NCBI GenBank assembly: GCA_965237835.1
Contig: OZ250160.1
Span: 2,530,146-2,594,145 of the forward strand
Direction: 5' to 3'
Length of the DNA: 64,000 nt
Source of the DNA: Candidatus Poribacteria bacterium
GTDB lineage: Bacteria > Poribacteria > WGA-4E > WGA-3G
Shown here: positions 10,911 to 25,397 of the stretch, in pieces
Layout: each line of letters opens with the position of its first letter
Position numbering within the stretch: position 1 is the first letter of the stretch
The notes under the pieces: model-generated
Told to the model about the DNA's origin: nothing
The model's input: only the letters and a program-made list of their open reading frames with translations
Databases searched by the model: none
Made by a program: the position numbers and the translations under genes

Positions 10911-10929
10911 GGAATTGTCCCCAAATCTA
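10911..10929 (+). promoter_or_regulatory. Conserved upstream motif cGGAATTGTCCC-N-AAATCTA (candidate ECF-type promoter or operator)
   Basis: The same motif occurs at 14799-14819, 19611-19629 and 24121-24140, each directly upstream of a cassette gene (sigma or TPR-X). Confidence 0.35.
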
Positions 10930-10940
10930 CGTCATTATCA

Positions 10941-11712
10941 ATGAAGACAGTTAAAAATTTTTCTTGGAAGAGGGAAATCGAGGATGGTGCGCTGCATCGT
11001 CGGTTTTTGGAAACAGGCAGCGAAGCAGCACTGCGTTTGCTTATGCAGAAGTACTATAAGCCAATTTGTAGTCACGTTTTCGCGATCTTGAAAGATCATC
11101 AAGATGCAGATGAAATCACAAATGAAACCTTCCTCAAAGCCTTCAATAAGAGGGAAACGATCAAGTATCCTGATAAACTCGTGAGTTGGTTATATAAGAC
11201 CGCGAAAAATGCGGCGATTGAGCGATTAAGAGCCAGACAACGAGATGTTCACCAGATGCTCGATTTAGTCTCTCTTGATAATTTGGATGCTGAAAGAGAA
11301 GCTGCAGCCGCATCAATATTTGCGGCACAGCAGATTGAGACTGATCAATACTTGTTGACAAGTCTGCTGCGACTTCATAACGGAAAAGGATCGTGAGGTT
11401 GTAGAATACTTATTAGATGACCTAAAGCCGAAGCAGATTGCTGAAGTGATAGACTCCACACCGGAAGCAGTTCAGAAAAGATGGGAACGGATACTCAAGT
11501 GGTTAAGCCCGATTGCTCACCGATTAGACGAACTGCTTAATAACCTTCCGCCTCAAGAACGGAAAATAATGGAACGGTATTTAGATAATCAACCTCTTGA
11601 AGAGATTAGTGAAAAATTAGGTATCTCCCCGACTAATGTTAAAGCATGCGTGAAACGTGTGATGAAGCAGTGGAAGAAAACCACAAGGCAAACGCCACGA
11701 AACGGAGGATAA
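10941..11712 (+). pseudogene. ECF (sigma-70 family) sigma factor, split by an apparent +1 frameshift near 11375-11380
   Basis: Region 2 (ETFLKAF, KLVSWLYKTAKNAAIERLRARQR) lies in frame 0 and ends at 11396. A region-4 HTH (EISEKLGISPTNVKACVKRV) continues in another frame to 11712. Deleting one A in the A-run restores LRLHNGKDREVVEYLLDDL. Confidence 0.6.
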
Positions 11713-12482: not shown

Positions 12483-13256
12483 ATGAAATTGTATCGTGTT
12501 CTTTTACTAATTTTCTGTTCAGGCATCCTCTTCGTTGGTGTCGTTAGTGATATTTCAGCAGCAGGTTTTGATCGTGACGGTCCCTATGAAGCTTCTGTAG
12601 ATGCCCGTCGCTTTGGCGGAAATGAAAACAGATTACATGTCAATTTGTATGCAAGGGCTTCTAGTACTGACCGAGCGAGAAATGGTTACTTGAATATATT
12701 TCTTAAGATAACTAACGGATGGTCAGTAGATCCGGCTGTTACCCCTGTTGATAGTCACGTCTGGCTTTGGGATCACCGTGATTTTCAGTTTGAAGAAAAC
12801 GGAGGCTATGTTTATGCATATGCTTCTGGACAAGACACAGGGAGAGCCTGGTATACCGCCTACACTGACGACACTGCGGAGCCGATGCCTCCTCCTGATC
12901 CTCCACCCGCCACCAACCCCACCAACCCCACCAACCCCGAACCACAATTGGGCATATCCCCCGTAGATCCAGATGACACTCCTTATCCCGGCGAAGCACA
13001 TGAGTACAGACTTGTCACAGATGCACCTTATTACTATGTGTATTGGTATGTGAAGGCACCTTGGGAGACAAGTGAACGCGGATCATATATAGGGAGTGAC
13101 TCAGGTGACGGCACGACAACTGAAGCAACATTCAGTTACACGTTCCCGAGCGGTGCAATGCATACTGGAGATTTTCTGATAACAGCGGTCATTTACCGGT
13201 GGTCAGATATGTCTGAGTATGAGGAGACCTATACTGCGACTGTGTTGTTAGATTAA
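12483..13256 (+). CDS. Cassette protein Y1: secreted protein with a variable N-domain, a Pro-rich linker and a conserved C-terminal domain
   Basis: Signal peptide. Linker PMPPPDPPPATNPTNPTNPEPQLGISPVDPDD. The C-domain (...YYYVYWYVKAPWETSERG...YEETYTATVLLD) is shared with 16066-16836 and 20579-21358. RBS-coupled 10 bp after X1. Confidence 0.7.
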   Translation: MKLYRVLLLIFCSGILFVGVVSDISAAGFDRDGPYEASVDARRFGGNENRLHVNLYARASSTDRARNGYLNIFLKITNGWSVDPAVTPVDSHVWLWDHRDFQFEENGGYVYAYASGQDTGRAWYTAYTDDTAEPMPPPDPPPATNPTNPTNPEPQLGISPVDPDDTPYPGEAHEYRLVTDAPYYYVYWYVKAPWETSERGSYIGSDSGDGTTTEATFSYTFPSGAMHTGDFLITAVIYRWSDMSEYEETYTATVLLD

Positions 13257-13292
13257 AAATTATGTCACATTTATCAGTATGAATAACAATAG

Positions 13293-13330
13293 ACAGGTAA
13301 CTTTGCGGTTACCTGTCTTCTCTTTTTATC
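13293..13330 (+). terminator. Rho-independent terminator after Y1 (copies follow Y2 and Y3)
   Basis: acaggtaac-tttgc-ggttacctgt followed by cttctctttttat. Confidence 0.6.
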
Positions 13331-13338
13331 AGAAAAAG

Positions 13339-13367
13339 TTGACATGTAACATGTATACGCGTATATT
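13339..13367 (+). promoter_or_regulatory. Near-consensus sigma-70 promoter upstream of the WD40 gene
   Basis: TTGACA, 17-nt spacer, TATATT. Identical in the duplicated intergenic segments at 16919 and about 21437. Confidence 0.5.
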
Positions 13368-13544
13368 ATCTGAACCAGGATTTTCAGGATTATCAGATTT
13401 TCAGGATTATAGATACTTCCTCAAATGAACAAGGACTTTGTTGAGAAATATAGATTTGAAGATAATACTAGCAGAAGATAGCCATCCATCTAAAAGCATA
13501 CTAATCCTGATAATCCCATAATCCTGTCCATCCTGGTTCAGACA
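13368..13544. repeat. ~177-bp element bounded by ~40-bp imperfect inverted repeats (tctgaaccaggatt...aatcctggttcaga), MITE-like family 2, forming the 5' leader of the WD40 gene
   Basis: Left arm tctgaaccaggattttcaggattatcag, right arm ctaatcctgataatcccataatcctgtccatcctggttcaga. A complete copy lies at 34728-34852 and partial copies near 31716, 52640 and 55385. Confidence 0.5.
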
Positions 13545-13643
13545 ATCCGAGATTTAGACAGAACCTTTGACATTTAATCCAACACATAGTAGAATAAACA
13601 CAACGTTAATTGGTATTAGAACAGCACATAGGAGAACACACCC

Positions 13644-14753
13644 ATGAGAAACAGATTGTTTTCAATTTTTACAGCACTGTTTGTAGCACTCCCATTTATG
13701 ACCTGCAGTCTCCCATCAGGTTCATTGGAGGATCCGCTGCATGATCCACAGCAAGCCCCGCAGCAAGAGCATTTACCCGAAGGCGCGAAAGGGCGCATCA
13801 AGAAAGACAGGATCAATGATATAGCGTATTCACCAGACGGCACAAAGCTCGCTGTAGCAGGTGGTAGCGGTATTTGGCTCTACGATGCACAGACAGGTCA
13901 TGAACTTGTCCAATTCGCAGGACATACCGGTAAAGTCCACAACGTGGCATTTAGTCCGGATGGAAAGACTATCGTAAGTGCCGGTACCAGTTACGATCGG
14001 ACCATTCGTATATGGGATGTGAACACGGGAAGAAACCTACGAACATTCAAATATCAGGTCTTTGACGTTGCGTTTAGTCCGGATGGAAAGACGATCATAA
14101 GTGGCAGTCATGACAAAAACCTCTACTTATTGGATGCGGACACAGGTAAACTCCTACGCACCCTCTCTGGGCATACGGATTTTGTCTGGTACGTGGCGTT
14201 TAGTCCGGACGGAAAAACTATTGCAAGTCGCAGTCAAGACCAGACCATTTGTCTGTGGGATGCGGACATAGGTAAACTCCTACAAACAATCACATGGCAT
14301 TCGCATCTGCCCAAGCATCCTCTCAAGCATCCTCTCAATACCGTAATTTTTAGTCCTGATGGAAAGATGATCGCAAGTGTTGGTGATGACCAGACTATTT
14401 GGCTGTGGGATGTGAACACGGGAAAACAACTACGAACAATCGCAAGAAACACGTCTCCTCATCGTAAGAACTTGGCATTTAGTCCGGATGGAAGCATGAT
14501 TGCATGTAACAATTGGAAGGATATTGATCTGTGGGATGTGAACACGGGAAAACTCCTACGAACACTCACAGGGTATCGGGAGAATAACCCACCGCGTCGG
14601 GACCGGTTCAGCGGACATATTTTAGGATCCCCCTGGGTCTTTATGGTGGTGTTCAGTCCGGATGGAAAGACTATCGCAGGTGCCAGTGGGCATGGCGTCC
14701 ATCTGTGGGATGTGAACACGGGATACCTCCAAAAACTCATCAGTGGTTTTTGA
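13644..14753 (+). CDS. WD40 repeat beta-propeller protein with N-terminal secretion/lipoprotein-like signal (WD40-1)
   Basis: Repeated [21 protein letters not shown] WD40 units. Signal [17 protein letters not shown]. Confidence 0.85.
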   Translation: MRNRLFSIFTALFVALPFMTCSLPSGSLEDPLHDPQQAPQQEHLPEGAKGRIKKDRINDIAYSPDGTKLAVAGGSGIWLYDAQTGHELVQFAGHTGKVHNVAFSPDGKTIVSAGTSYDRTIRIWDVNTGRNLRTFKYQVFDVAFSPDGKTIISGSHDKNLYLLDADTGKLLRTLSGHTDFVWYVAFSPDGKTIASRSQDQTICLWDADIGKLLQTITWHSHLPKHPLKHPLNTVIFSPDGKMIASVGDDQTIWLWDVNTGKQLRTIARNTSPHRKNLAFSPDGSMIACNNWKDIDLWDVNTGKLLRTLTGYRENNPPRRDRFSGHILGSPWVFMVVFSPDGKTIAGASGHGVHLWDVNTGYLQKLISGF

Positions 14754-14935
14754 TACGACCGCGCTGCGGTCTGTTGTAAAATGCCAATTTTCTGTTAGCG
14801 GAATTGTCCCTTAAATCTATCTATAAGAGAAAACTCTCATAGAATAATAGCATCTGTTTGCAAGCATTCCTATCTGGTTTTGTGAATTAAATTCTAAACG
14901 TCCCTGTTAATTTCTACTTGGTAAGGAGAAAAATC

Positions 14936-16051
14936 ATGAAATTTGTCAACTTCTGTCTGTTTACTACTTTTGTTCTTACAACAGTAATGCAAATCGGATG
15001 TTTGTCCGGTGGTGCGATGGGTACTGCGGAAAAATTAAGTGAGACGAAAGACTATCGCGGTGCATTAGAAGTCTATCAAAATGTTGTAGATACCAAACCC
15101 GGTACTGCTGACGCGCGCGCAGCACAACTCGCAATAGGTGAACTCTACATTGAGCATATACATTAACCCGAACAAGGGATTGAAACTTATGAAGCGGTCA
15201 TTGCTGAAGCACCCACAAGCGATGAAGCTGCAGAGGCACACTATCGTCTCGGGATGCACGCCTATCGCCAAAAAGACTATGACGCAGCGCAAACCCAATT
15301 TGGTACTATTGTTAACCATTTTTCGCATCTGGAATTGAGTCACAACGCACAACTGATGTCGGCAAAAAGTTATGAGGATGGGCAAAAATTTGAACAAGCT
15401 GTAGAAGTTTATGATAATTTTGCGAACCGCAACCCACAGAGTAAACGCGCTGCACAAGCCCTCGCCAATAAAGCACGAATACAACGCAAATTCCTTAAAG
15501 ATGATGATGAAGCGATACGTACCCTGCAATTATTAGTCATAAAATACGGCAAAATTAAGAGCGCAGAATCATACGTTAAAGAAGCTAAAAAAGTATTAAT
15601 TGAATTCAATGTCTCTCCTTTTGGATTTGGTGCATATCCTGAAGTTCCCGCCGATTATCCATTTCAGGAGCGACTTTGGGATAATGCCACGCCAGAGAAT
15701 GAGTTGTTAATCCGAGTTCAGATTAAGTTATGGAATCAAGGAACACGAACTAAAGGTGCAGCGTTTAGTAGTAATGGTCTCGTTTATCCCACAATTTCTG
15801 GTGTCCTTTACGTAGAATGGCGTTACATTGAAGAAGGTGACCCAGATTTAGTAGGGCGACGGTATGCCGGTACAGTAAGCGGTGACGGAGAGACTGCTAA
15901 AAAGTGGCGATCTTTATACCTTACTGACCGTATGTTTGAGCGCACAGACGTAACGCATGACACTAAGGTATCAGGTATAAAGATTTATGAGTATCCAGAT
16001 GGAGGAATAGACCCCTACAAATTCCTCGATTTACCGAGGCAAGGAGAATAA
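14936..16051 (+). pseudogene. Cassette protein X2: TPR lipoprotein carrying the conserved X C-domain, interrupted by an in-frame TAA at 15164-15166
   Basis: The intact paralog at 24258-25397 reads CAA (Q) where this copy reads TAA. Lipobox MQIGC. TPR-like helices. The downstream ORF 15254-16051 carries the X C-domain. Confidence 0.6.
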
Positions 16052-16065
16052 AATGAAACTGTCCA

Positions 16066-16836
16066 GTGTTTTTTTACTTTTCATGCGTTGTCCTCTTCGT
16101 TGTTGCAGTTGGTGATATTTCAGCAGCTGTTGGACAGGACGGTCCCTATACTGCTGAAGCATACGGCTATCGCGTGGGCGGAATTAATAATGACAGATTA
16201 AATGTCAGTTTGTCTGGTAGGGCTAGTAGTACTGTGTTTGGAAGTGACGGTTATTATAAAATAGAGTTATTTAAAGAACTACCCAGCGGATGGAGTATAA
16301 TTGCTGAACAGGACGAGGTTGATACACATGGTGGTCAAATTGATGGCCACTTCTATGTAAACCTAGACTTAGATCTTCCTAGGGAAGAATACGCATGCTT
16401 TATTGACGTTGATGTTAGTGGTAGAGCGACAAATGGAAGGTACTGTTTTGCGGATGCTGATGAATATGTGGGACCGATGCCTCCACCTCCCCCTAATCCT
16501 CAACTCATCATCGACCCCGAACCACAAGTGGGCATATCCTCCGTAGATCCAGATGACACTCCTTATCCGGGGAACACATACGAGTTCAGACTTATCACAG
16601 ATGTCCATTATTATTGGGTGGACTGGTATGTGAAAGCACCCTGGGAGACAAGTGAAAGGGGAACACATATAGAAGGTCAATTAGGAGATGGCGAGACAAC
16701 TGAATCTACATTCAGTTACACGTTCCCGAGCGGTGCAATGCATACTGGAGATTTTCTGATAACAGCGGTCATTTACCGGTGGTCAGATATGTCTGAGTAT
16801 GAGGAGACCTATACTGCGACTGTGTTGTTAGATTAA
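16066..16836 (+). CDS. Cassette protein Y2 (secreted; variable N-domain, conserved C-domain); the native ATG at 16053 is out of frame through a T7 homopolymer, so the ORF opens at a GTG
   Basis: The ATG at 16053 reads into a TGA. A T7 run at 16068-16074 sits in the signal-peptide codons. The C-terminal 100 aa are almost identical to Y1 and Y3. Confidence 0.55.
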   Translation: MFFYFSCVVLFVVAVGDISAAVGQDGPYTAEAYGYRVGGINNDRLNVSLSGRASSTVFGSDGYYKIELFKELPSGWSIIAEQDEVDTHGGQIDGHFYVNLDLDLPREEYACFIDVDVSGRATNGRYCFADADEYVGPMPPPPPNPQLIIDPEPQVGISSVDPDDTPYPGNTYEFRLITDVHYYWVDWYVKAPWETSERGTHIEGQLGDGETTESTFSYTFPSGAMHTGDFLITAVIYRWSDMSEYEETYTATVLLD

Positions 16837-17223
16837 AAATTATGTCACATTTATCAGTATGAATAACAATAGACAGGTAACTTTGCGGTTACCTGTCTTC
16901 TCTTTTTATCAGAAAAAGTTGACATGTAACATGTATACGCGTATATTATCTGAACCAGGATTTTCAGGATTATCAGATTTTCAGGATTATAGATACTTCC
17001 TCAAATGAACAAGGACTTTGTTGAGAAATATAGATTTGAAGATAATACTAGCAGAAGATAGCCATCCATCTAAAAGCATACTAATCCTGATAATCCCATA
17101 ATCCTGTCCATCCTGGTTCAGACAATCCGAGATTTAGACAGAACCTTTGACATTTAATCCAACACATAGTAGAATAAACACAACGTTAATTGGTATTAGA
17201 ACAGCACATAGGAGAACACACCC

Positions 17224-18333
17224 ATGAGAAACAGATTGTTTTCAATTTTTACAGCACTGTTTGTAGCACTCCCATTTATGACCTGCAGTCTCCCATCAGG
17301 TTCATTGGAGGATCCGCTGCATGATCCACAGCAAGCCCCGCAGCAAGAGCATTTACCCGAAGGCGCGAAAGGGCGCATCAAGAAAGACAGGATCAATGAT
17401 ATAGCGTATTCACCAGACGGCACGAAGCTCGCGGTGGCAGGTGGTAGCGGTATTTGGCTCTATGATGCACAGACAGGTCATGAACTTGTCCAATTCGCAG
17501 GACATACCGGTAAAGTCCACAACGTGGCATTTAGTCCGGATGGAAAGACTATCGTAAGTGCCGGTACCAGTTACGATCGGACCATTCGTATATGGGATGT
17601 GAACACGGGAAGAAACCTACGAACATTCAAGTATCAGGTCTTTGACGTTGCGTTTAGTCCGGATGGAAAGACGATCATAAGTGGCAGTCATGACAAAAAC
17701 CTCTACTTATTGGATGCGGACACAGGTAAACTCCTACGCACCCTCTCTGGGCATACGGATTTTGTCTGGTACGTGGCGTTTAGTCCGGACGGAAAAACTA
17801 TCGCAAGTCGCAGTCAGGACAAGACCATTTGTCTGTGGGATGCGGACATAGGTAAACTCCTACAAACAATCACATGGCATTCGCATCTGCCCAAGCATCC
17901 TCACAAGCATCCTCTCAATACCGTAATTTTTAGTCCTGATGGAAAGATGATCGCAAGTGTTGGTGATGACCAGACTATTTGGCTGTGGGATGTGAACACG
18001 GGAAAACAACTACGAACAATCGCAAGAAACACGTCTCCTTATCGTAAGAACTTGGCATTTAGTCCGGATGGAAGCATGATTGCATGTAACAATTGGAAGG
18101 ATATTGATCTGTGGGATGTGAACACGGGAAAACAACTACGAACACTCACAGGGTATCGGGAGAATAACCCATCGCATCGGGACCGGTTCAGCGGACATAT
18201 TTTAGGAAACCCCAGCATCTTTACGGTGGTGTTTAGTCCGGATGGAAAGACTATCGCAGGTGCCAATAGGCGTGGCGTCCATCTGTGGGATGTGAACACG
18301 GGGTACCTCCGAAAACTCATCAGTGGTTTTTGA
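17224..18333 (+). CDS. WD40 repeat lipoprotein-like protein (WD40-2), near-identical to WD40-1
   Basis: 369 aa with only a few substitutions relative to 13644-14753. The upstream 387 bp is identical to 13257-13643. Confidence 0.85.
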
Positions 18334-18351: not shown

Positions 18352-18579
18352 TTAGGTATTTAGAACAGCACAAAAGGAGAACACACCCATGAAAAATAGC
18401 ACGAAACCAACTTTGTTGACATTTCCAACGCAAACCCTCCTCTTTGAGCCATTCCCAGATCGTTGAATCAGAAGATGAATACCCGTTTTCTCTGTAAACG
18501 CAGTTTGCAATCGTCCCAGTGTCCATACCTCAAATGGATAACCGAGACTACGCGGTTTTTGCAACGCTAAATCTATCAT
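18352..18579 (-). pseudogene. Remnant of an IS630-family transposase N-terminal HTH region
   Basis: [24 protein letters not shown]...RSGNGSKRR resembles the winged-HTH region of IS630/Tc1 transposases. Only ~75 aa remain. Confidence 0.35.
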
Positions 18580-19640
18580 ACCATATTAACTTGATTAGAA
18601 GTCTTTTGATATAGCACACGGTTGCGAGGCACGGGGACCTCGCGCTACAGATCGGGTTAATTTGGTATCAGTTGACCGCGCACCTCCGTTGAATGAATAC
18701 GCGGTTTACCGCTTTTCGGTTTATCAGCAGGTTTTCCTTTGATACCTTTTTCGTTCACGCAGCAGATATACTTGATTTGAAACCCGCTTGTTTTGCTGCT
18801 TGGGCAGCTGTCAGGGTGTTGTCATCAATCATGCTGACAATCAACCTGGCTCTCTGCACAGTCCGATAACATCTCCTCTATTTATAGCCCTCCGATCACT
18901 GTGTATTTATACCATTCTAAGTGATTATGTTGTGTTAGTTCGTAGGTTCGGTAGAGCGGTAACGAAACCATAAGTGTCAATTTAGTAGTCTTCCAACCCC
19001 GGTAGGTGCGGTTTCCTAACCGCACTATAACCGTCACCAAGTCTAACCGTAGATAAAGGGATACCACTCTCCATTGATAGAATACGAGGCTTCACTAGGT
19101 ATCTCATCACCATTAGCGAGTCCGGAAATGGGTTGGGTTAGTAAACAGACAGCTGCTAGTGCAAAAAGTATGTAGGTGCAAAAGGGGGCATGATATGAAA
19201 AAAGTTGGAAATGTTGAATGTCCACGGTTGAACGTAGGTGTGTAATTATCGGATATTTGCTATCTGGAATACGCAGGGCTGCATTTTTTGACACTGGGAA
19301 GTAATATGGGGGGGCTGGTTGTTTTGAAAAAGTCGTTGCGAGGCGTTTTTGACAGGAATTCGTTATATCGTAATGTTGGTCTGTTCAGATGTGCGATACG
19401 CGCATATGTGCAGCAGTCGCACACGTGCGCAGCACTCGGTGTTCATCTTGCCATATTATTAAAAGGTGTCAGGGATATCGTGCCCTAATATTTTATCCAT
19501 CTTTCAACGAACATTCTAACAGTATCGTTAGGGATATGTGTATTGGTTAAATTATCCATGTATATCGCCGTATAAATCAATATTATCAAAAAAATATACG
19601 ATTACATGTCGGAATTGTCCCCAAATCTACGTCATTATCA

Positions 19641-19808
19641 ATGAAGACAGTTAAAAATTTTTATAGGGAACGGTATTTAGACAATCAACCTCTCAAAGAG
19701 ATTAGTGAAAAATTGGGTATTTCTCTGACTAATGTTGAAGTATGCGTGAAACGTGTGATAAAGCAGTGGAAGAAATCCACAAGGCAAACGCCACGAAACG
19801 GAGGATAA
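19641..19808 (+). pseudogene. In-frame internal-deletion remnant of the ECF sigma gene (55-aa ORF retaining only the region-4 HTH)
   Basis: The first 7 codons (MKTVKNF) are fused to YRERYLDNQPLKEISEKLGISLTNVEVCVKRV. The upstream 140 bp is identical to 10800-10940. Confidence 0.5.
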
Positions 19809-20578: not shown

Positions 20579-21358
20579 ATGAAATTGTATCGTGTTCTTT
20601 TACTTTTTTTCTTTTCATGCGCTATCCTCTTCGTTGGTGCAGTTAGTGATATTTCAGCAGATGCTCAAGTTAACGGTCCCTATACTGCTGAAGCATACGT
20701 TTATCGTGTTAACACAGCTAATGTCATATTGACCGCTAAAGCTAGTAGTACGCCGCGGGCAAAAAACGGTAAGTATAAATTAGTTGCAAATAAAGATTCA
20801 GATTTAAACAGACAGGTCGAAACTTGGGATCCACTTGAAGAACAAACCCACCTGGATACACATGGTGCTCCAATTGATGGTGAATTCTCCGAAGAGCTAA
20901 AAAGAAATTATCCTTCGACAGAATACGGATACCAGGCTAAATCACTTGTTGATGGACAATTGACAGATGGAGCTTTTCGTGCTGCTTTTGCTGAAGATAA
21001 AGTGGGCGAGATACCTATTCTTGAACCCACCCCCGTCCCTCAACCACAATTGGGCATATCCCCCGTAGATCCAGATGACACTCCTTATCCCGGCGAAGCA
21101 CATGAGTACAGACTTGTCACAGAGGCACCTTATTACTATGTGAATTGGTATGTGAAGGCACCTTGGGAGACAAGTGAACGCGGATCATATATAGGGAGTG
21201 ACTCAGGTGACGGCACGACAACTGAATCTACATTCAGTTACACGTTCCCGAGCGGTGCAATGCATACTGGAGATTTTCTGATAACAGCGGTCATTTACCG
21301 GTGGTCAGATATGTCTGAGTATGAGGAGACTTATACTGCGACTGTGTCATTAGATTAA
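20579..21358 (+). CDS. Cassette protein Y3 (secreted; divergent N-domain, conserved C-domain)
   Basis: Signal peptide. N-domain only distantly similar to Y1 and Y2 (DGPYTAEAY.YRV...ASST). C-terminal ~105 aa conserved. Confidence 0.7.
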   Translation: MKLYRVLLLFFFSCAILFVGAVSDISADAQVNGPYTAEAYVYRVNTANVILTAKASSTPRAKNGKYKLVANKDSDLNRQVETWDPLEEQTHLDTHGAPIDGEFSEELKRNYPSTEYGYQAKSLVDGQLTDGAFRAAFAEDKVGEIPILEPTPVPQPQLGISPVDPDDTPYPGEAHEYRLVTEAPYYYVNWYVKAPWETSERGSYIGSDSGDGTTTESTFSYTFPSGAMHTGDFLITAVIYRWSDMSEYEETYTATVSLD

Positions 21359-24075: not shown

Positions 24076-24257
24076 TACGACCGCGCTGCGGTCTGTTGTA
24101 AAATGCCAATTTTCTGTTAGCGGAATTGTCCCTTAAATCTATCTATAAGAGAAAACTCTCATAGAATAATAGCATCTGTTTGCAAGCATTCCTATCTGGT
24201 TTTGTGAATTAAATTCTAAACGTCCCTGTTAATTTCTACTTGGTAAGGAGAAAAATC

Positions 24258-25397
24258 ATGAAATTTGTCAACTTCTGTCTGTTTACTACTTTTGTTCTTA
24301 TAACAGTAATGCAAATCGGATGTTTGTCCGGTGGTGCGATGGGTACTGCGGAAAAATTAAGTGAGACGAAAGACTATCGCGGTGCATTAGAAGTCTATCA
24401 AAATGTTGTAGATACCAAACCCGGTACTGCTGACGCGCGCGCAGCACAACTCGCAATAGGTGAACTCTACATTGAGCATATACATCAACCCGAACAAGGG
24501 ATTGAAACTTATGAAGCGGTCATTGCTGAAGCACCCACAAGCGATGAAGCTGCAGAGGCACACTATCGTCTCGGGATGCACGCCTATCGCCAAAAAGACT
24601 ATGACGCAGCGCAAACCCAATTTGGTACTATTGTTAACCAATTTTCGCATCTGGAATTGAGTCACAACGCACAACTGATGTCGGCAAAAAGTTATGAGGA
24701 CGGGCAAAAATTTGAACAAGCTGTAGAAGTTTATGATAATTTTGCGAACCGCAACCCACAGAGTAAACGCGCTGCACAAGCCCTCGCCAATAAAGCGCGA
24801 ATACAACGCAAATTCCTTAAAGATGATGATGAAGCGATACGTACCCTGCAATCATTAGTCATAAAATACGGCAAAATTAAGAGCGCAGAATCATACGTTA
24901 AAGAAGCTAAAAAAGTATTAATTGAATTCAATGTCTCTCCTTTTGGATTTGGTGCATATCCTGAAGTTCCCGCCGATTATCCATTTCAGGAGCGACTTTG
25001 GGATAATGCCACGCCAGAGCATGAGTTGTTAGTCCGAGTCGAAGTTAAGTTATGGAATCAAGGAACACGAACTAAAGGTGCAGCGTTTAGTAGTAATGGT
25101 CTCGTTTATCCCACAATTTCTGGTGTCCTTTACGTAGAATGGCGTTACATTGAAGAAGGTGACCCAGATTTAGTAGGGCAACGGTATGCGGGACGTGTAA
25201 TGGGTGACGGAGATACTGCTAAAAAGTGGCGATCTTTATACCTTACTGACCGTATGTTTGAGCGCACAGACGTAACGCATGACACTGAGGTATCAGGTAT
25301 AAAGATTTATGAGTATCCAGATGGAGGAATAGACCCCTACAAATTCCTCGATTTACCGAGGTTTGATGTTGAATTGAGAGAAGGAGGCAAAAACTAA
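24258..25397 (+). CDS. Cassette protein X4: intact TPR lipoprotein fused to the conserved X C-domain
   Basis: RBS AAGGAG 7 nt upstream of the ATG at 24258. Lipobox IGC. TPR-like repeats. C-domain SPFGFGAYPEVPADYPFQER... Confidence 0.75.
   Translation: MKFVNFCLFTTFVLITVMQIGCLSGGAMGTAEKLSETKDYRGALEVYQNVVDTKPGTADARAAQLAIGELYIEHIHQPEQGIETYEAVIAEAPTSDEAAEAHYRLGMHAYRQKDYDAAQTQFGTIVNQFSHLELSHNAQLMSAKSYEDGQKFEQAVEVYDNFANRNPQSKRAAQALANKARIQRKFLKDDDEAIRTLQSLVIKYGKIKSAESYVKEAKKVLIEFNVSPFGFGAYPEVPADYPFQERLWDNATPEHELLVRVEVKLWNQGTRTKGAAFSSNGLVYPTISGVLYVEWRYIEEGDPDLVGQRYAGRVMGDGDTAKKWRSLYLTDRMFERTDVTHDTEVSGIKIYEYPDGGIDPYKFLDLPRFDVELREGGKN

What the first reader, a model, noticed from the sequence alone, without database searches (positions are those of the whole stretch)
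14936..16836. Cassette 2 carries two inactivating lesions: a nonsense codon in X2 and a homopolymer frameshift at the Y2 start, suggesting decay or phase-variable copies
X2 has TAA at 15164-15166 where the intact paralog X4 has CAA (24486 region). Y2's native ATG (16053) runs into a TGA because of a T7 tract (16068-16074) in the signal-peptide codons (Y3 has T6 at the same place). The ORF reopens from a GTG at 16066. Homopolymer slippage in a signal-peptide region is a classical phase-variation switch, so this could be regulated ON/OFF rather than simple pseudogenisation. Either possibility is informative about selection on the cassette.
Basis: seen in the sequence. Interest (0 to 1): 0.5.

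Follow-up and report, generated by a model that had tools for sequence, protein, structure and literature searches.

The report
Two broken genes in duplicated array
Two neighbouring genes in a recently duplicated gene array of a sponge-symbiont (Poribacteria) genome are truly broken, by a stop codon and by an 8-base deletion rather than a slipped T run, so this looks like ordinary decay of spare gene copies and not an ON/OFF switch.

Summary
Both lesions are real. X2 has TAA at 15164-15166 where X4 and five orthologues have CAA. Y2's ATG (16053) runs into TGA at 16113-16115, and an ORF reopens at GTG 16066.

The T7 run lies at 16069-16075, not 16068-16074, and it is the wild-type state: three intact alleles from other metagenomes carry the same GTGTTTTTTTA in frame. 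Y2 instead lacks the next 8 nt (CTTTTTTT), a deletion between CTTTT direct repeats. Y3 has TTCTTTT at that place, not T6. An independent short-read assembly of another strain has the same deleted 5' end, so it is not an assembly error. No allele with a different T-run length was seen.

The window is from a Candidatus Poribacteria chromosome. Relatives have one intact set at this locus: ECF sigma, membrane X, secreted Y, WD40 lipoprotein(s), TPR lipoprotein X. Here recombination expanded it to 14 gene copies. Cassette 2 is a hybrid duplicate. Both sigma copies in the array are also broken.

The best reading is decay of surplus copies in a recombining, birth-and-death array. This is a new instance of a known kind, and interest is low. 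The X2 stop has no independent confirmation.

The parts
14800..14819 (+). Conserved motif GGAATTGTCCCTTAAATCTA upstream of X2, an ECF-type promoter candidate (inferred). Near-identical copies lie upstream of sigma1 (10911), the sigma remnant (19611) and X4 (24122).
   Evidence: 4 matches in the window against 0 expected; the motif sits at the same positions in L003, L007, L008 and L012.
14936..16051 (+). X2, a pseudogene of a TPR lipoprotein with the family's C-terminal domain. Apart from one stop it is full length. Its extreme 3' end (about 16011-16040 onward) switches to the membrane-X/Y type junction, which makes cassette 2 a hybrid.
15164..15166 (+). Nonsense codon TAA at codon 77, derived from CAA by a C>T change.
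   Evidence: All six compared X(TPR) sequences have CAA. The 76-aa fragment is on record only from this contig.
16053..16115 (+). Y2's native start (ATG, with AAGGAG 7 nt upstream) and the 20-codon dead-end frame that ends at TGA 16113-16115.
16069..16075 (+). T7 run. This is the wild-type sequence (codons GTT TTT TTA = V-F-L), not the lesion.
   Evidence: identical in the intact alleles L003, L017 and L018.
16076..16081 (+). Site of the 8-nt deletion (CTTTTTTT missing after A16076). The exact position is ambiguous within the CTTTT direct repeat. This is the frameshifting lesion.
   Evidence: The same deletion is in the independent contig L002.
16066..16836 (+). Y2 body as a GTG-started ORF of 256 codons: a truncated signal peptide without the conserved MKL n-region, then two beta-sandwich domains. 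It is the orthologue of the only Y gene in relative L007 (94% aa identity).
16871..16898 (+). Hairpin followed by a T tail, a terminator-like site that would end the X2-Y2 transcription unit.
10941..11712 (+). ECF sigma factor copy 1, broken. It has a 21-nt in-frame deletion near 11330 and one extra A at 11377 that shifts the frame.
   Evidence: compared with the intact 263-aa sigma of L007 and L003.
19641..19808 (+). ECF sigma factor copy 2, a remnant with an internal deletion of about 600 bp.
24258..25397 (+). X4, the intact TPR-lipoprotein paralogue (379 aa) and the positional orthologue of the single X(TPR) in relatives, next to ComEC.

Best explanation
Cassette 2 is a young, hybrid duplicate inside a recombining gene array of a Candidatus Poribacteria chromosome. 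Its two-gene operon X2-Y2 is being lost by ordinary mutation.

Shown:
- X2 carries a C>T nonsense mutation at codon 77.
- Y2 carries an 8-nt deletion between CTTTT direct repeats in the T-rich signal-peptide codons.
- The Y2 deletion separates the ribosome-binding site and ATG from the body of the gene.
- The T7 run next to the deletion is wild-type sequence.

Inferred:
- The deletion arose by replication slippage between the direct repeats.
- The lesions are tolerated because an intact X(TPR) copy (X4) and intact Y copies (Y1, Y3) remain.
- The array's own ECF sigma factor, which probably drives the promoter-like motif upstream of X2, is itself broken in both copies, so the operon may already be poorly transcribed.
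- The stop in X2 would also reduce Y2 expression by polarity.
For: Lesions:
- Both verified against paralogues and orthologues.
- Three intact alleles keep the same T7 in frame and have 8 more nt.
- The same deleted 5' end, identical over the first 100 nt of the contig, occurs in an independent SPAdes contig from another sample (L002). The rest of that contig is about 5% diverged and Y3-like, so the lesion is real and stable.

Locus in relatives:
- The arrangement is ADH | sigma - X(TM) - Y - W(n) - X(TPR) | ComEC. It is intact and has a single sigma - X(TM) - Y - X(TPR) set, with one to three W genes, in the species representative OZ244616.1 (L012) and in L007. L013 has the same order but its X(TPR) is interrupted.
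- The flanks are 96-98% identical to L007.

This genome:
- It has 14 gene copies. The W1-X2 segment is a 94% copy of W3b-X4, and X2 switches to the X(TM)-Y junction at its 3' end.
- Cassettes 1 and 2 are about 100% identical over 16771-18129.
- Two further lesions lie in the same array, both in sigma copies.
- Other populations also show broken X or Y copies or a remodelled array: P0083, P0098, P0104/P0105, L013, L008.

Y family:
- 42 of the 81 Y-family hits start with MKL, as does nearly every hit of typical length. Only Y2 and P0004 start with MFFYFSC.
- GTG 16066 lies 20 nt from the AAGGAG and has no ribosome-binding site of its own.
Against: - The Y2 ORF downstream of the lesion is still open for 256 codons. 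Its dN/dS against the L007 orthologue is 0.30 (12 synonymous and 13 non-synonymous differences). That is expected if the lesion is recent, but it also fits continued function from GTG.
- The deletion allele is present in two strains with different Y bodies. It has therefore persisted through at least one recombination event, which could mean it is tolerated or useful.
- The X2 stop codon is seen only in this assembly, and two JGI metagenome scans found nothing.
- Whether an intact copy of the sigma factor exists elsewhere in the 5.9-Mb genome was not tested.
- No expression data are available.
Confidence: 0.7

Rival explanations
1. Slipped-strand phase variation: the T7 run in the Y2 signal-peptide codons changes length at high frequency and switches Y2 ON (T6 or T9) and OFF (T7).
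For: T6 or T9 would arithmetically restore a full ORF with a shortened or altered signal peptide. The gene encodes a secreted, variable protein of a host-associated bacterium, the usual kind of target.
Against: The frameshift is caused by an 8-nt deletion. T7 is the in-frame wild type in three intact alleles, and all five alleles carrying the run have exactly 7 T. No T6- or T9-type N-terminus (MKLSSVFYFSC / MKLSSVFFYFSC) occurs among the 81 homologue clusters or the cluster members. Seven T is below the 10 or more used for A/T tracts in PhasomeIt. T7 runs occur 9 times in the window against about 5 expected, so nothing marks this one out.
Confidence: 0.04
2. Y2 is still made. Translation starts at GTG 16066, or a small fraction of transcripts or ribosomes shift frame on the T7 run. 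The product is exported with an N-terminally shortened signal peptide (MFFYFSCVVLFVVAVGDISA), so only X2 is truly dead.
For: The ORF is open for 256 codons with an intact hydrophobic core and the DISA cleavage-type motif. The same N-terminus sits in front of another open 252-codon ORF in a second strain, P0004. dN/dS against the orthologue is 0.30.
Against: No ribosome-binding site lies near the GTG; the AAGGAG is 20 nt upstream and serves the ATG. Ribosomes starting at the ATG end at 16115, downstream of the GTG. The lysine of the n-region, invariant across the aligned full-length family members, is lost. The upstream nonsense codon in X2 should reduce transcription into Y2 (inference from Rho-dependent polarity). 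The dN/dS value mostly reflects the time before the lesion.
Confidence: 0.15
3. The X2 stop codon is a consensus artefact or a minority variant of the population that was fixed by the assembler, and X2 is intact in most cells.
For: The TAA allele is on record only from this contig. X2 and X4 are about 99.5% identical around the site, so mis-assigned reads are conceivable.
Against: The contig name indicates about 47x coverage, and substitution errors in a consensus at that depth are rare (general knowledge). The paralogue X4 has C at this position, so mis-assigned X4 reads would favour CAA, not TAA. Three other lesions in the same array, one of them independently confirmed, make a genuine lesion unsurprising.
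Confidence: 0.08
4. The broken cassette copies serve as silent donors in a gene-conversion system that reshuffles the variable N-terminal domain of Y and parts of X and W, as in pilS/pilE or vls cassettes.
For: Sharp mosaic boundaries exist between cassettes: about 100% identity beside stretches of 35-60%. An X1-type patch lies inside X2. The deleted 5' end is joined to different Y bodies in two strains. Copy number varies strongly among strains.
Against: Mosaicism is expected from any tandem paralogues. There is no dedicated expression site and no promoterless donor organisation: each X-Y unit has its own promoter-like motif and terminator. No within-population variation was demonstrated.
Confidence: 0.08

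Closest known systems
Pseudogenes arising in tandem or segmental duplicates (birth-and-death evolution of paralogous surface-protein arrays in host-associated bacteria)
   Same: Recent duplicates are generated by unequal recombination between shared domains. One copy stays intact while others collect nonsense, frameshift and deletion lesions. Copy number differs between strains.
   Different: The regulator (ECF sigma) is hit in both of its copies, not only the surplus structural genes. The Y2 variable domain has no close duplicate in this genome: it shares only 35-60% nt identity with Y1 and Y3.
Simple-sequence-repeat (homopolymer) translational phase variation, as in Campylobacter, Neisseria and Haemophilus contingency loci
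   Same: A homopolymer lies in the 5' coding region of a secreted protein gene, and a one-base change there would change the frame.
   Different: The tract is T7, below the usual A/T cut-off of 10 or more (PMC6321876). It is invariant among alleles and is not the cause of the frameshift.
Eukaryote-like repeat proteins (TPR, WD40, FN3/Ig-like) of Candidatus Poribacteria
   Same: X(TPR) and the W lipoproteins carry the TPR and WD40 repeats reported as the most abundant repeat domains in poribacterial genomes, often with signal peptides (PMC3909097; Pfam results). Y is modelled as two Ig/FN3-like beta-sandwiches.
   Different: The paper found and checked here (PMC3909097) does not mention sigma factors, so it does not describe the conserved sigma-X-Y-W-X locus or its strain-level expansion and decay. 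No exhaustive literature search was made.
ECF sigma factor operons with a co-transcribed membrane partner and autoregulated promoter
   Same: The sigma gene (Sigma70_r2 plus r4_2) overlaps the start of a single-pass membrane protein gene. A GGAAT...CGTC-type motif lies just upstream and recurs before X(TPR).
   Different: The membrane partner has only about 9 cytoplasmic residues before its helix, too few for a classical anti-sigma domain. Promoter function is inferred, not tested.
Rescue of homopolymer frameshifts by transcriptional slippage in endosymbionts (recalled from memory: Tamas et al. 2008; not checked here)
   Same: A frameshifted gene has an A/T run just upstream of the out-of-frame part, where loss of one base in the mRNA would restore the frame.
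   Different: As recalled, slippage needs runs of about 9-10 or more. Here the run is 7, and nothing indicates slippage.

Membership tests
SSR-mediated (homopolymer) phase-variable gene | Repeat tract long enough to be hypermutable (A/T runs of about 10 or more; G/C of 7 or more) | tested here: not met
   The tract is T7 at 16069-16075. The cut-offs are quoted from PMC6321876. No T run of 8 or more exists in the window.
SSR-mediated (homopolymer) phase-variable gene | Tract length differs between alleles, strains or reads | tested here: not met
   All five alleles with this tract (Y2, L002, L003, L017, L018) have exactly 7 T. Read-level variation could not be tested.
SSR-mediated (homopolymer) phase-variable gene | The ON/OFF frame difference is caused by the tract itself | tested here: not met
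   Intact alleles have the same T7. The difference is an 8-nt deletion next to it.
SSR-mediated (homopolymer) phase-variable gene | Reversible switching at high frequency within a population | not testable with these tools
   This needs read pile-ups or cultures.
Pseudogene (decaying duplicate) | ORF disrupted relative to intact orthologues and paralogues | tested here: met
   X2 has TAA where six sequences have CAA. Y2 has an 8-nt deletion relative to five intact alleles.
Pseudogene (decaying duplicate) | Arose by duplication, with an intact copy retained in the same genome | tested here: met
   W1-X2 is a 94% copy of W3b-X4, and X4 is intact. Y1 and Y3 are intact, though their variable domains differ from Y2's.
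Pseudogene (decaying duplicate) | Relaxed selection after the lesion | tested here: inconclusive
   X2-specific changes are 4 non-synonymous, 1 nonsense and 1 synonymous. Pairwise dN/dS is 0.68-0.84 for X2 and 0.30 for Y2. There are too few substitutions to decide.
Pseudogene (decaying duplicate) | No functional product is made | not testable with these tools
   This needs transcript or protein data. The lost ribosome-binding-site/ATG linkage and lost n-region are indirect evidence.
ECF sigma factor regulon | Sigma70 region 2 and region 4 domains in the regulator | tested here: met
   PF04542 and PF08281 hit the two halves of sigma1. Intact 263-aa versions exist in L007 and L003.
ECF sigma factor regulon | Shared promoter motif upstream of the sigma gene and its target genes, recognised by that sigma | tested here: inconclusive
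   The motif is present at 4 sites against 0 expected and is conserved in relatives. Recognition by the sigma factor was not tested.

The most novel reading that the evidence does not exclude
The array is a recombination-driven variation system for secreted and lipoprotein 'eukaryote-like' proteins of a sponge symbiont. Broken cassettes such as X2-Y2 would be kept as sequence donors, and segments such as the variable Y domain or the signal-peptide end would be moved between copies by gene conversion. The 8-nt-deleted 5' end joined to different Y bodies in two strains would be a trace of that process.
Probability: 0.08. Interest if true: 0.6.

Novelty: new member of a known kind. Interest (0 to 1): 0.2.

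Why it matters
Mainly as a correction. A frameshift beside a homopolymer was read as a possible phase-variation switch. Comparison with intact alleles shows the homopolymer is innocent and the lesion is a small deletion.

There is also some biology. A conserved poribacterial locus (ECF sigma, membrane X, secreted two-domain Y, WD40 lipoproteins, TPR lipoprotein X) expands and decays quickly between closely related strains. This is useful background for studying how sponge symbionts turn over their surface and 'eukaryote-like' proteins. It also matters for annotating MAGs, where such fragments are called as separate genes.

Tried and rejected
- **JGI metagenome scans.** One pattern covered all Y2-start variants (T-run of any length, with or without the 8 nt). 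The other covered the X codon-77 site (CAA or TAA). Both returned nothing, so no population data came from there.
- **Exact-protein look-ups.** W1, W2, X4 and the X2/Y2 fragments were found only on the source contig, so no sister strain with the same expansion is available.
- **dN/dS and lineage-specific substitution counts.** There were too few changes to separate relaxed from purifying selection.
- **Rfam scan of 10-26 kb.** It gave no hit, so no known frameshift or regulatory RNA was found.
- **-1 ribosomal frameshifting on U UUU UUA.** The heptamer is in the right phase, but a -1 shift leads to the wrong frame; the Y2 body is in the +1 frame. This was worked out from the coordinates.
- **Homopolymer assembly error for Y2.** Rejected because the difference is 8 nt and is reproduced in a short-read assembly.
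- **More cassettes elsewhere in the window.** None were found outside 10.8-25.4 kb.
- **Fold search of the Y model.** It gave only generic tandem Ig/FN3-like matches and no specific function.
- **Not done.** A third large protein search for further sigma paralogues in the genome, because cluster-level output could not show which genome a hit comes from.

Full report
**What is at the coordinates**

X2 starts at ATG 14936 and has an in-frame TAA at 15164-15166 (codon 77). Apart from that it is a full-length copy of X4. In the first 421 aligned bases X2 and X4 differ at two positions, one of which is this C/T. Against six other X(TPR) sequences (X4, L007, L008, L009, L010, L012) the T is unique to X2, so CAA>TAA is derived.

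Y2's ATG at 16053 sits 7 nt after an AAGGAG. Its frame stops at TGA 16113-16115 after 20 codons. A GTG at 16066 opens a 256-codon ORF that runs to 16836.

**The Y2 lesion is not a homopolymer length change**

The T7 run is at 16069-16075, one base off from the finding. Y2's start was aligned with Y1, Y3 and alleles from other assemblies. Intact genes in L003 (protein P0003), L017 (P0102) and L018 (P0106) contain the identical ...AGTGTTTTTTTA, read as V-F-L. It is followed by CTTTTTTT-CTTTTCATGC, and all of it is in frame.

Y2 lacks exactly the 8 nt CTTTTTTT. The missing piece is bounded by CTTTT direct repeats, which is the signature of replication slippage between short repeats (inference). 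Re-inserting the 8 nt yields a 263-aa protein with the family-typical start MKLSSVFLLFFFSC....

At the position of Y2's T7, Y3 reads TTCTTTT, not T6. Y3's own T7 (20604) lies in the stretch Y2 has lost.

**Is the deletion real?**

Yes. A SPAdes contig from a different ENA analysis (L002, ERZ6104056, protein P0004) is 100% identical to the X2-Y2 junction over its first 100 nt. That stretch includes T7 and the 8-nt deletion. The rest of the contig is Y3-like and about 5% diverged from this genome. The allele therefore exists in another strain and was recovered by an independent short-read assembly.

The X2 stop has no such confirmation. The 76-aa fragment is on record only for this contig, and two JGI metagenome scans returned nothing.

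**Phase variation test**

- All five alleles that contain the run have exactly seven T.
- None of the 81 homologue clusters or listed cluster members begins with the sequence a T6 or T9 revertant would give.
- T7 is below the 10 or more used for A/T tracts in a standard phase-variation catalogue (PMC6321876).
- T7 runs occur nine times in the window against about five expected.
- One T fewer would restore the frame, so rare reversion is possible. Nothing indicates a switch.
- A -1 ribosomal slip on U UUU UUA leads to the wrong frame, because the Y2 body is in the +1 frame.

**Context**

The window is part of a 5.93-Mb circular contig. Homologue names and the species representative OZ244616.1 place it in Candidatus Poribacteria.

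In relatives the locus between an alcohol-dehydrogenase-like gene and ComEC reads as follows (L012 and L007; L013 has the same order with an interrupted X(TPR)):
- an ECF sigma of 259-263 aa;
- X(TM), a single-pass membrane protein with a C-terminal domain that has no Pfam match;
- Y;
- one or more WD40 lipoproteins (W);
- X(TPR), a lipoprotein with TPR repeats and the same C-terminal domain.

The flanks are 96-98% identical to L007.

Y has a signal peptide and two beta-sandwich domains joined by a proline-rich linker (pLDDT 88). Its fold matches are generic Ig/FN3-like ones. TPR and WD40 proteins are the hallmark eukaryote-like repeat proteins of Poribacteria (PMC3909097).

**How cassette 2 arose**

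In this genome the array is: sigma1 - X1 - Y1 - W1 - X2 - Y2 - W2 - (IS fragment) - sigma remnant - X3 - Y3 - W3a - W3b - X4.

- W1-X2 is a 94% copy of W3b-X4.
- X2 follows the X(TPR) type almost to its end, then switches to the X(TM)-Y junction at about 16011-16040. This points to unequal recombination within the shared C-terminal domain.
- Cassettes 1 and 2 are about 100% identical over 16771-18129.
- The Y N-terminal domains share only 35-60% nt identity in every pairwise comparison.

**More decay in the same array**

- Sigma1 has a 21-nt in-frame deletion and an extra A at 11377 that shifts the frame.
- The second sigma copy is a remnant with an internal deletion of about 600 bp.
- A motif GGAATTGTCCC(N1-2)AAATCTA occurs exactly four times in the window: upstream of sigma1, the sigma remnant, X2 and X4. 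It is conserved in relatives. It looks like an ECF-type promoter shared by the sigma gene and X(TPR), which is an inference.
- If no other copy of this sigma exists in the genome (not tested), the X2-Y2 unit is probably poorly transcribed. That unit runs from the motif at 14800 to the terminator-like hairpin at 16871-16898.
- Other populations also show broken X and Y genes or remodelled arrays (P0083, P0098, P0104/P0105, L013, L008).

**Conclusion**

Both lesions are genuine inactivating mutations in a surplus, hybrid duplicate of a fast-turnover array. Decay is the best explanation, with confidence about 0.7.

The remaining doubts are:
- Y2 may still be made from the GTG. The ORF is open and the same allele is found in two strains, but there is no ribosome-binding site and the conserved MKL n-region is lost.
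- The X2 stop could be a consensus or minor-variant artefact.
- The broken copies could act as gene-conversion donors.

Selection statistics are uninformative because there are too few changes. No known RNA element lies in the region.

Noticed in passing
window 10941-11712: The first ECF sigma factor gene of the array is itself broken. Compared with the intact 263-aa genes in L007 and L003 it has a 21-nt in-frame deletion near 11330, between GCAGATTGAGAC repeats, and one extra A at 11377 that shifts the frame.
   Followed up: yes
window 19641-19808: A second sigma copy is a 55-codon remnant with an internal deletion of about 600 bp. The same remnant precedes the second cassette on L003, so this deletion is older than the strain split.
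   Followed up: partly
window 10911-10929, 14800-14819, 19611-19629, 24122-24141: The motif GGAATTGTCCC(N1-2)AAATCTA occurs four times against 0 expected, upstream of both sigma copies and both X(TPR) copies. It is conserved at the same places in relatives. It looks like an ECF promoter; at the sigma gene it ends only about 10 nt before the ATG, suggesting a leaderless transcript.
   Followed up: partly
window 18472-18758 (- strand): A fragment of an IS630-type transposase helix-turn-helix region, 97-100% identical in protein to a fragment beside an IS630-family transposase on L003. It lies between W2 and the sigma remnant, at a cassette boundary.
   Followed up: partly
window 16100-16570, compared with 12530-12990 and 20630-21090: The N-terminal beta-sandwich domain of Y is hypervariable: 35-60% nt identity between all three copies, and dN/dS of about 0.7-0.9 over the whole genes. 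The flanking sequence is 90-100% identical, with sharp boundaries that suggest gene conversion or diversifying selection.
   Followed up: partly
window 13191-14549 and 16771-18129: A tract of about 1.4 kb that is essentially 100% identical between cassettes 1 and 2. It covers the end of Y, the intergenic region with two strong sigma-70-like promoters, and most of W. This indicates a very recent duplication or conversion.
   Followed up: partly
L003 (ENA ERZ25766727 ctg359802_34x_c, 255,921 bp, marked circular): Two cassettes of the same family, one with an intact sigma, lie on a 256-kb circular contig outside the ADH/ComEC context and next to an IS630-family transposase. This may be a separate replicon that carries the array.
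   Followed up: no
L008 1-11140 and L013 10001-12050: Related strains show other states of the locus. L008 has six WD40 genes but has lost sigma-X-Y, leaving a sigma remnant and a 78-aa Y fragment. L013 has its X(TPR) gene interrupted by about 900 bp.
   Followed up: partly
window 24258-25397 (X4), N-terminal 60%: The TPR part of X(TPR) is 60-75% identical to the N-terminal part of a widespread poribacterial TPR protein of about 644 aa. X(TPR) therefore looks like a fusion of that TPR module with the cassette's C-terminal domain.
   Followed up: no
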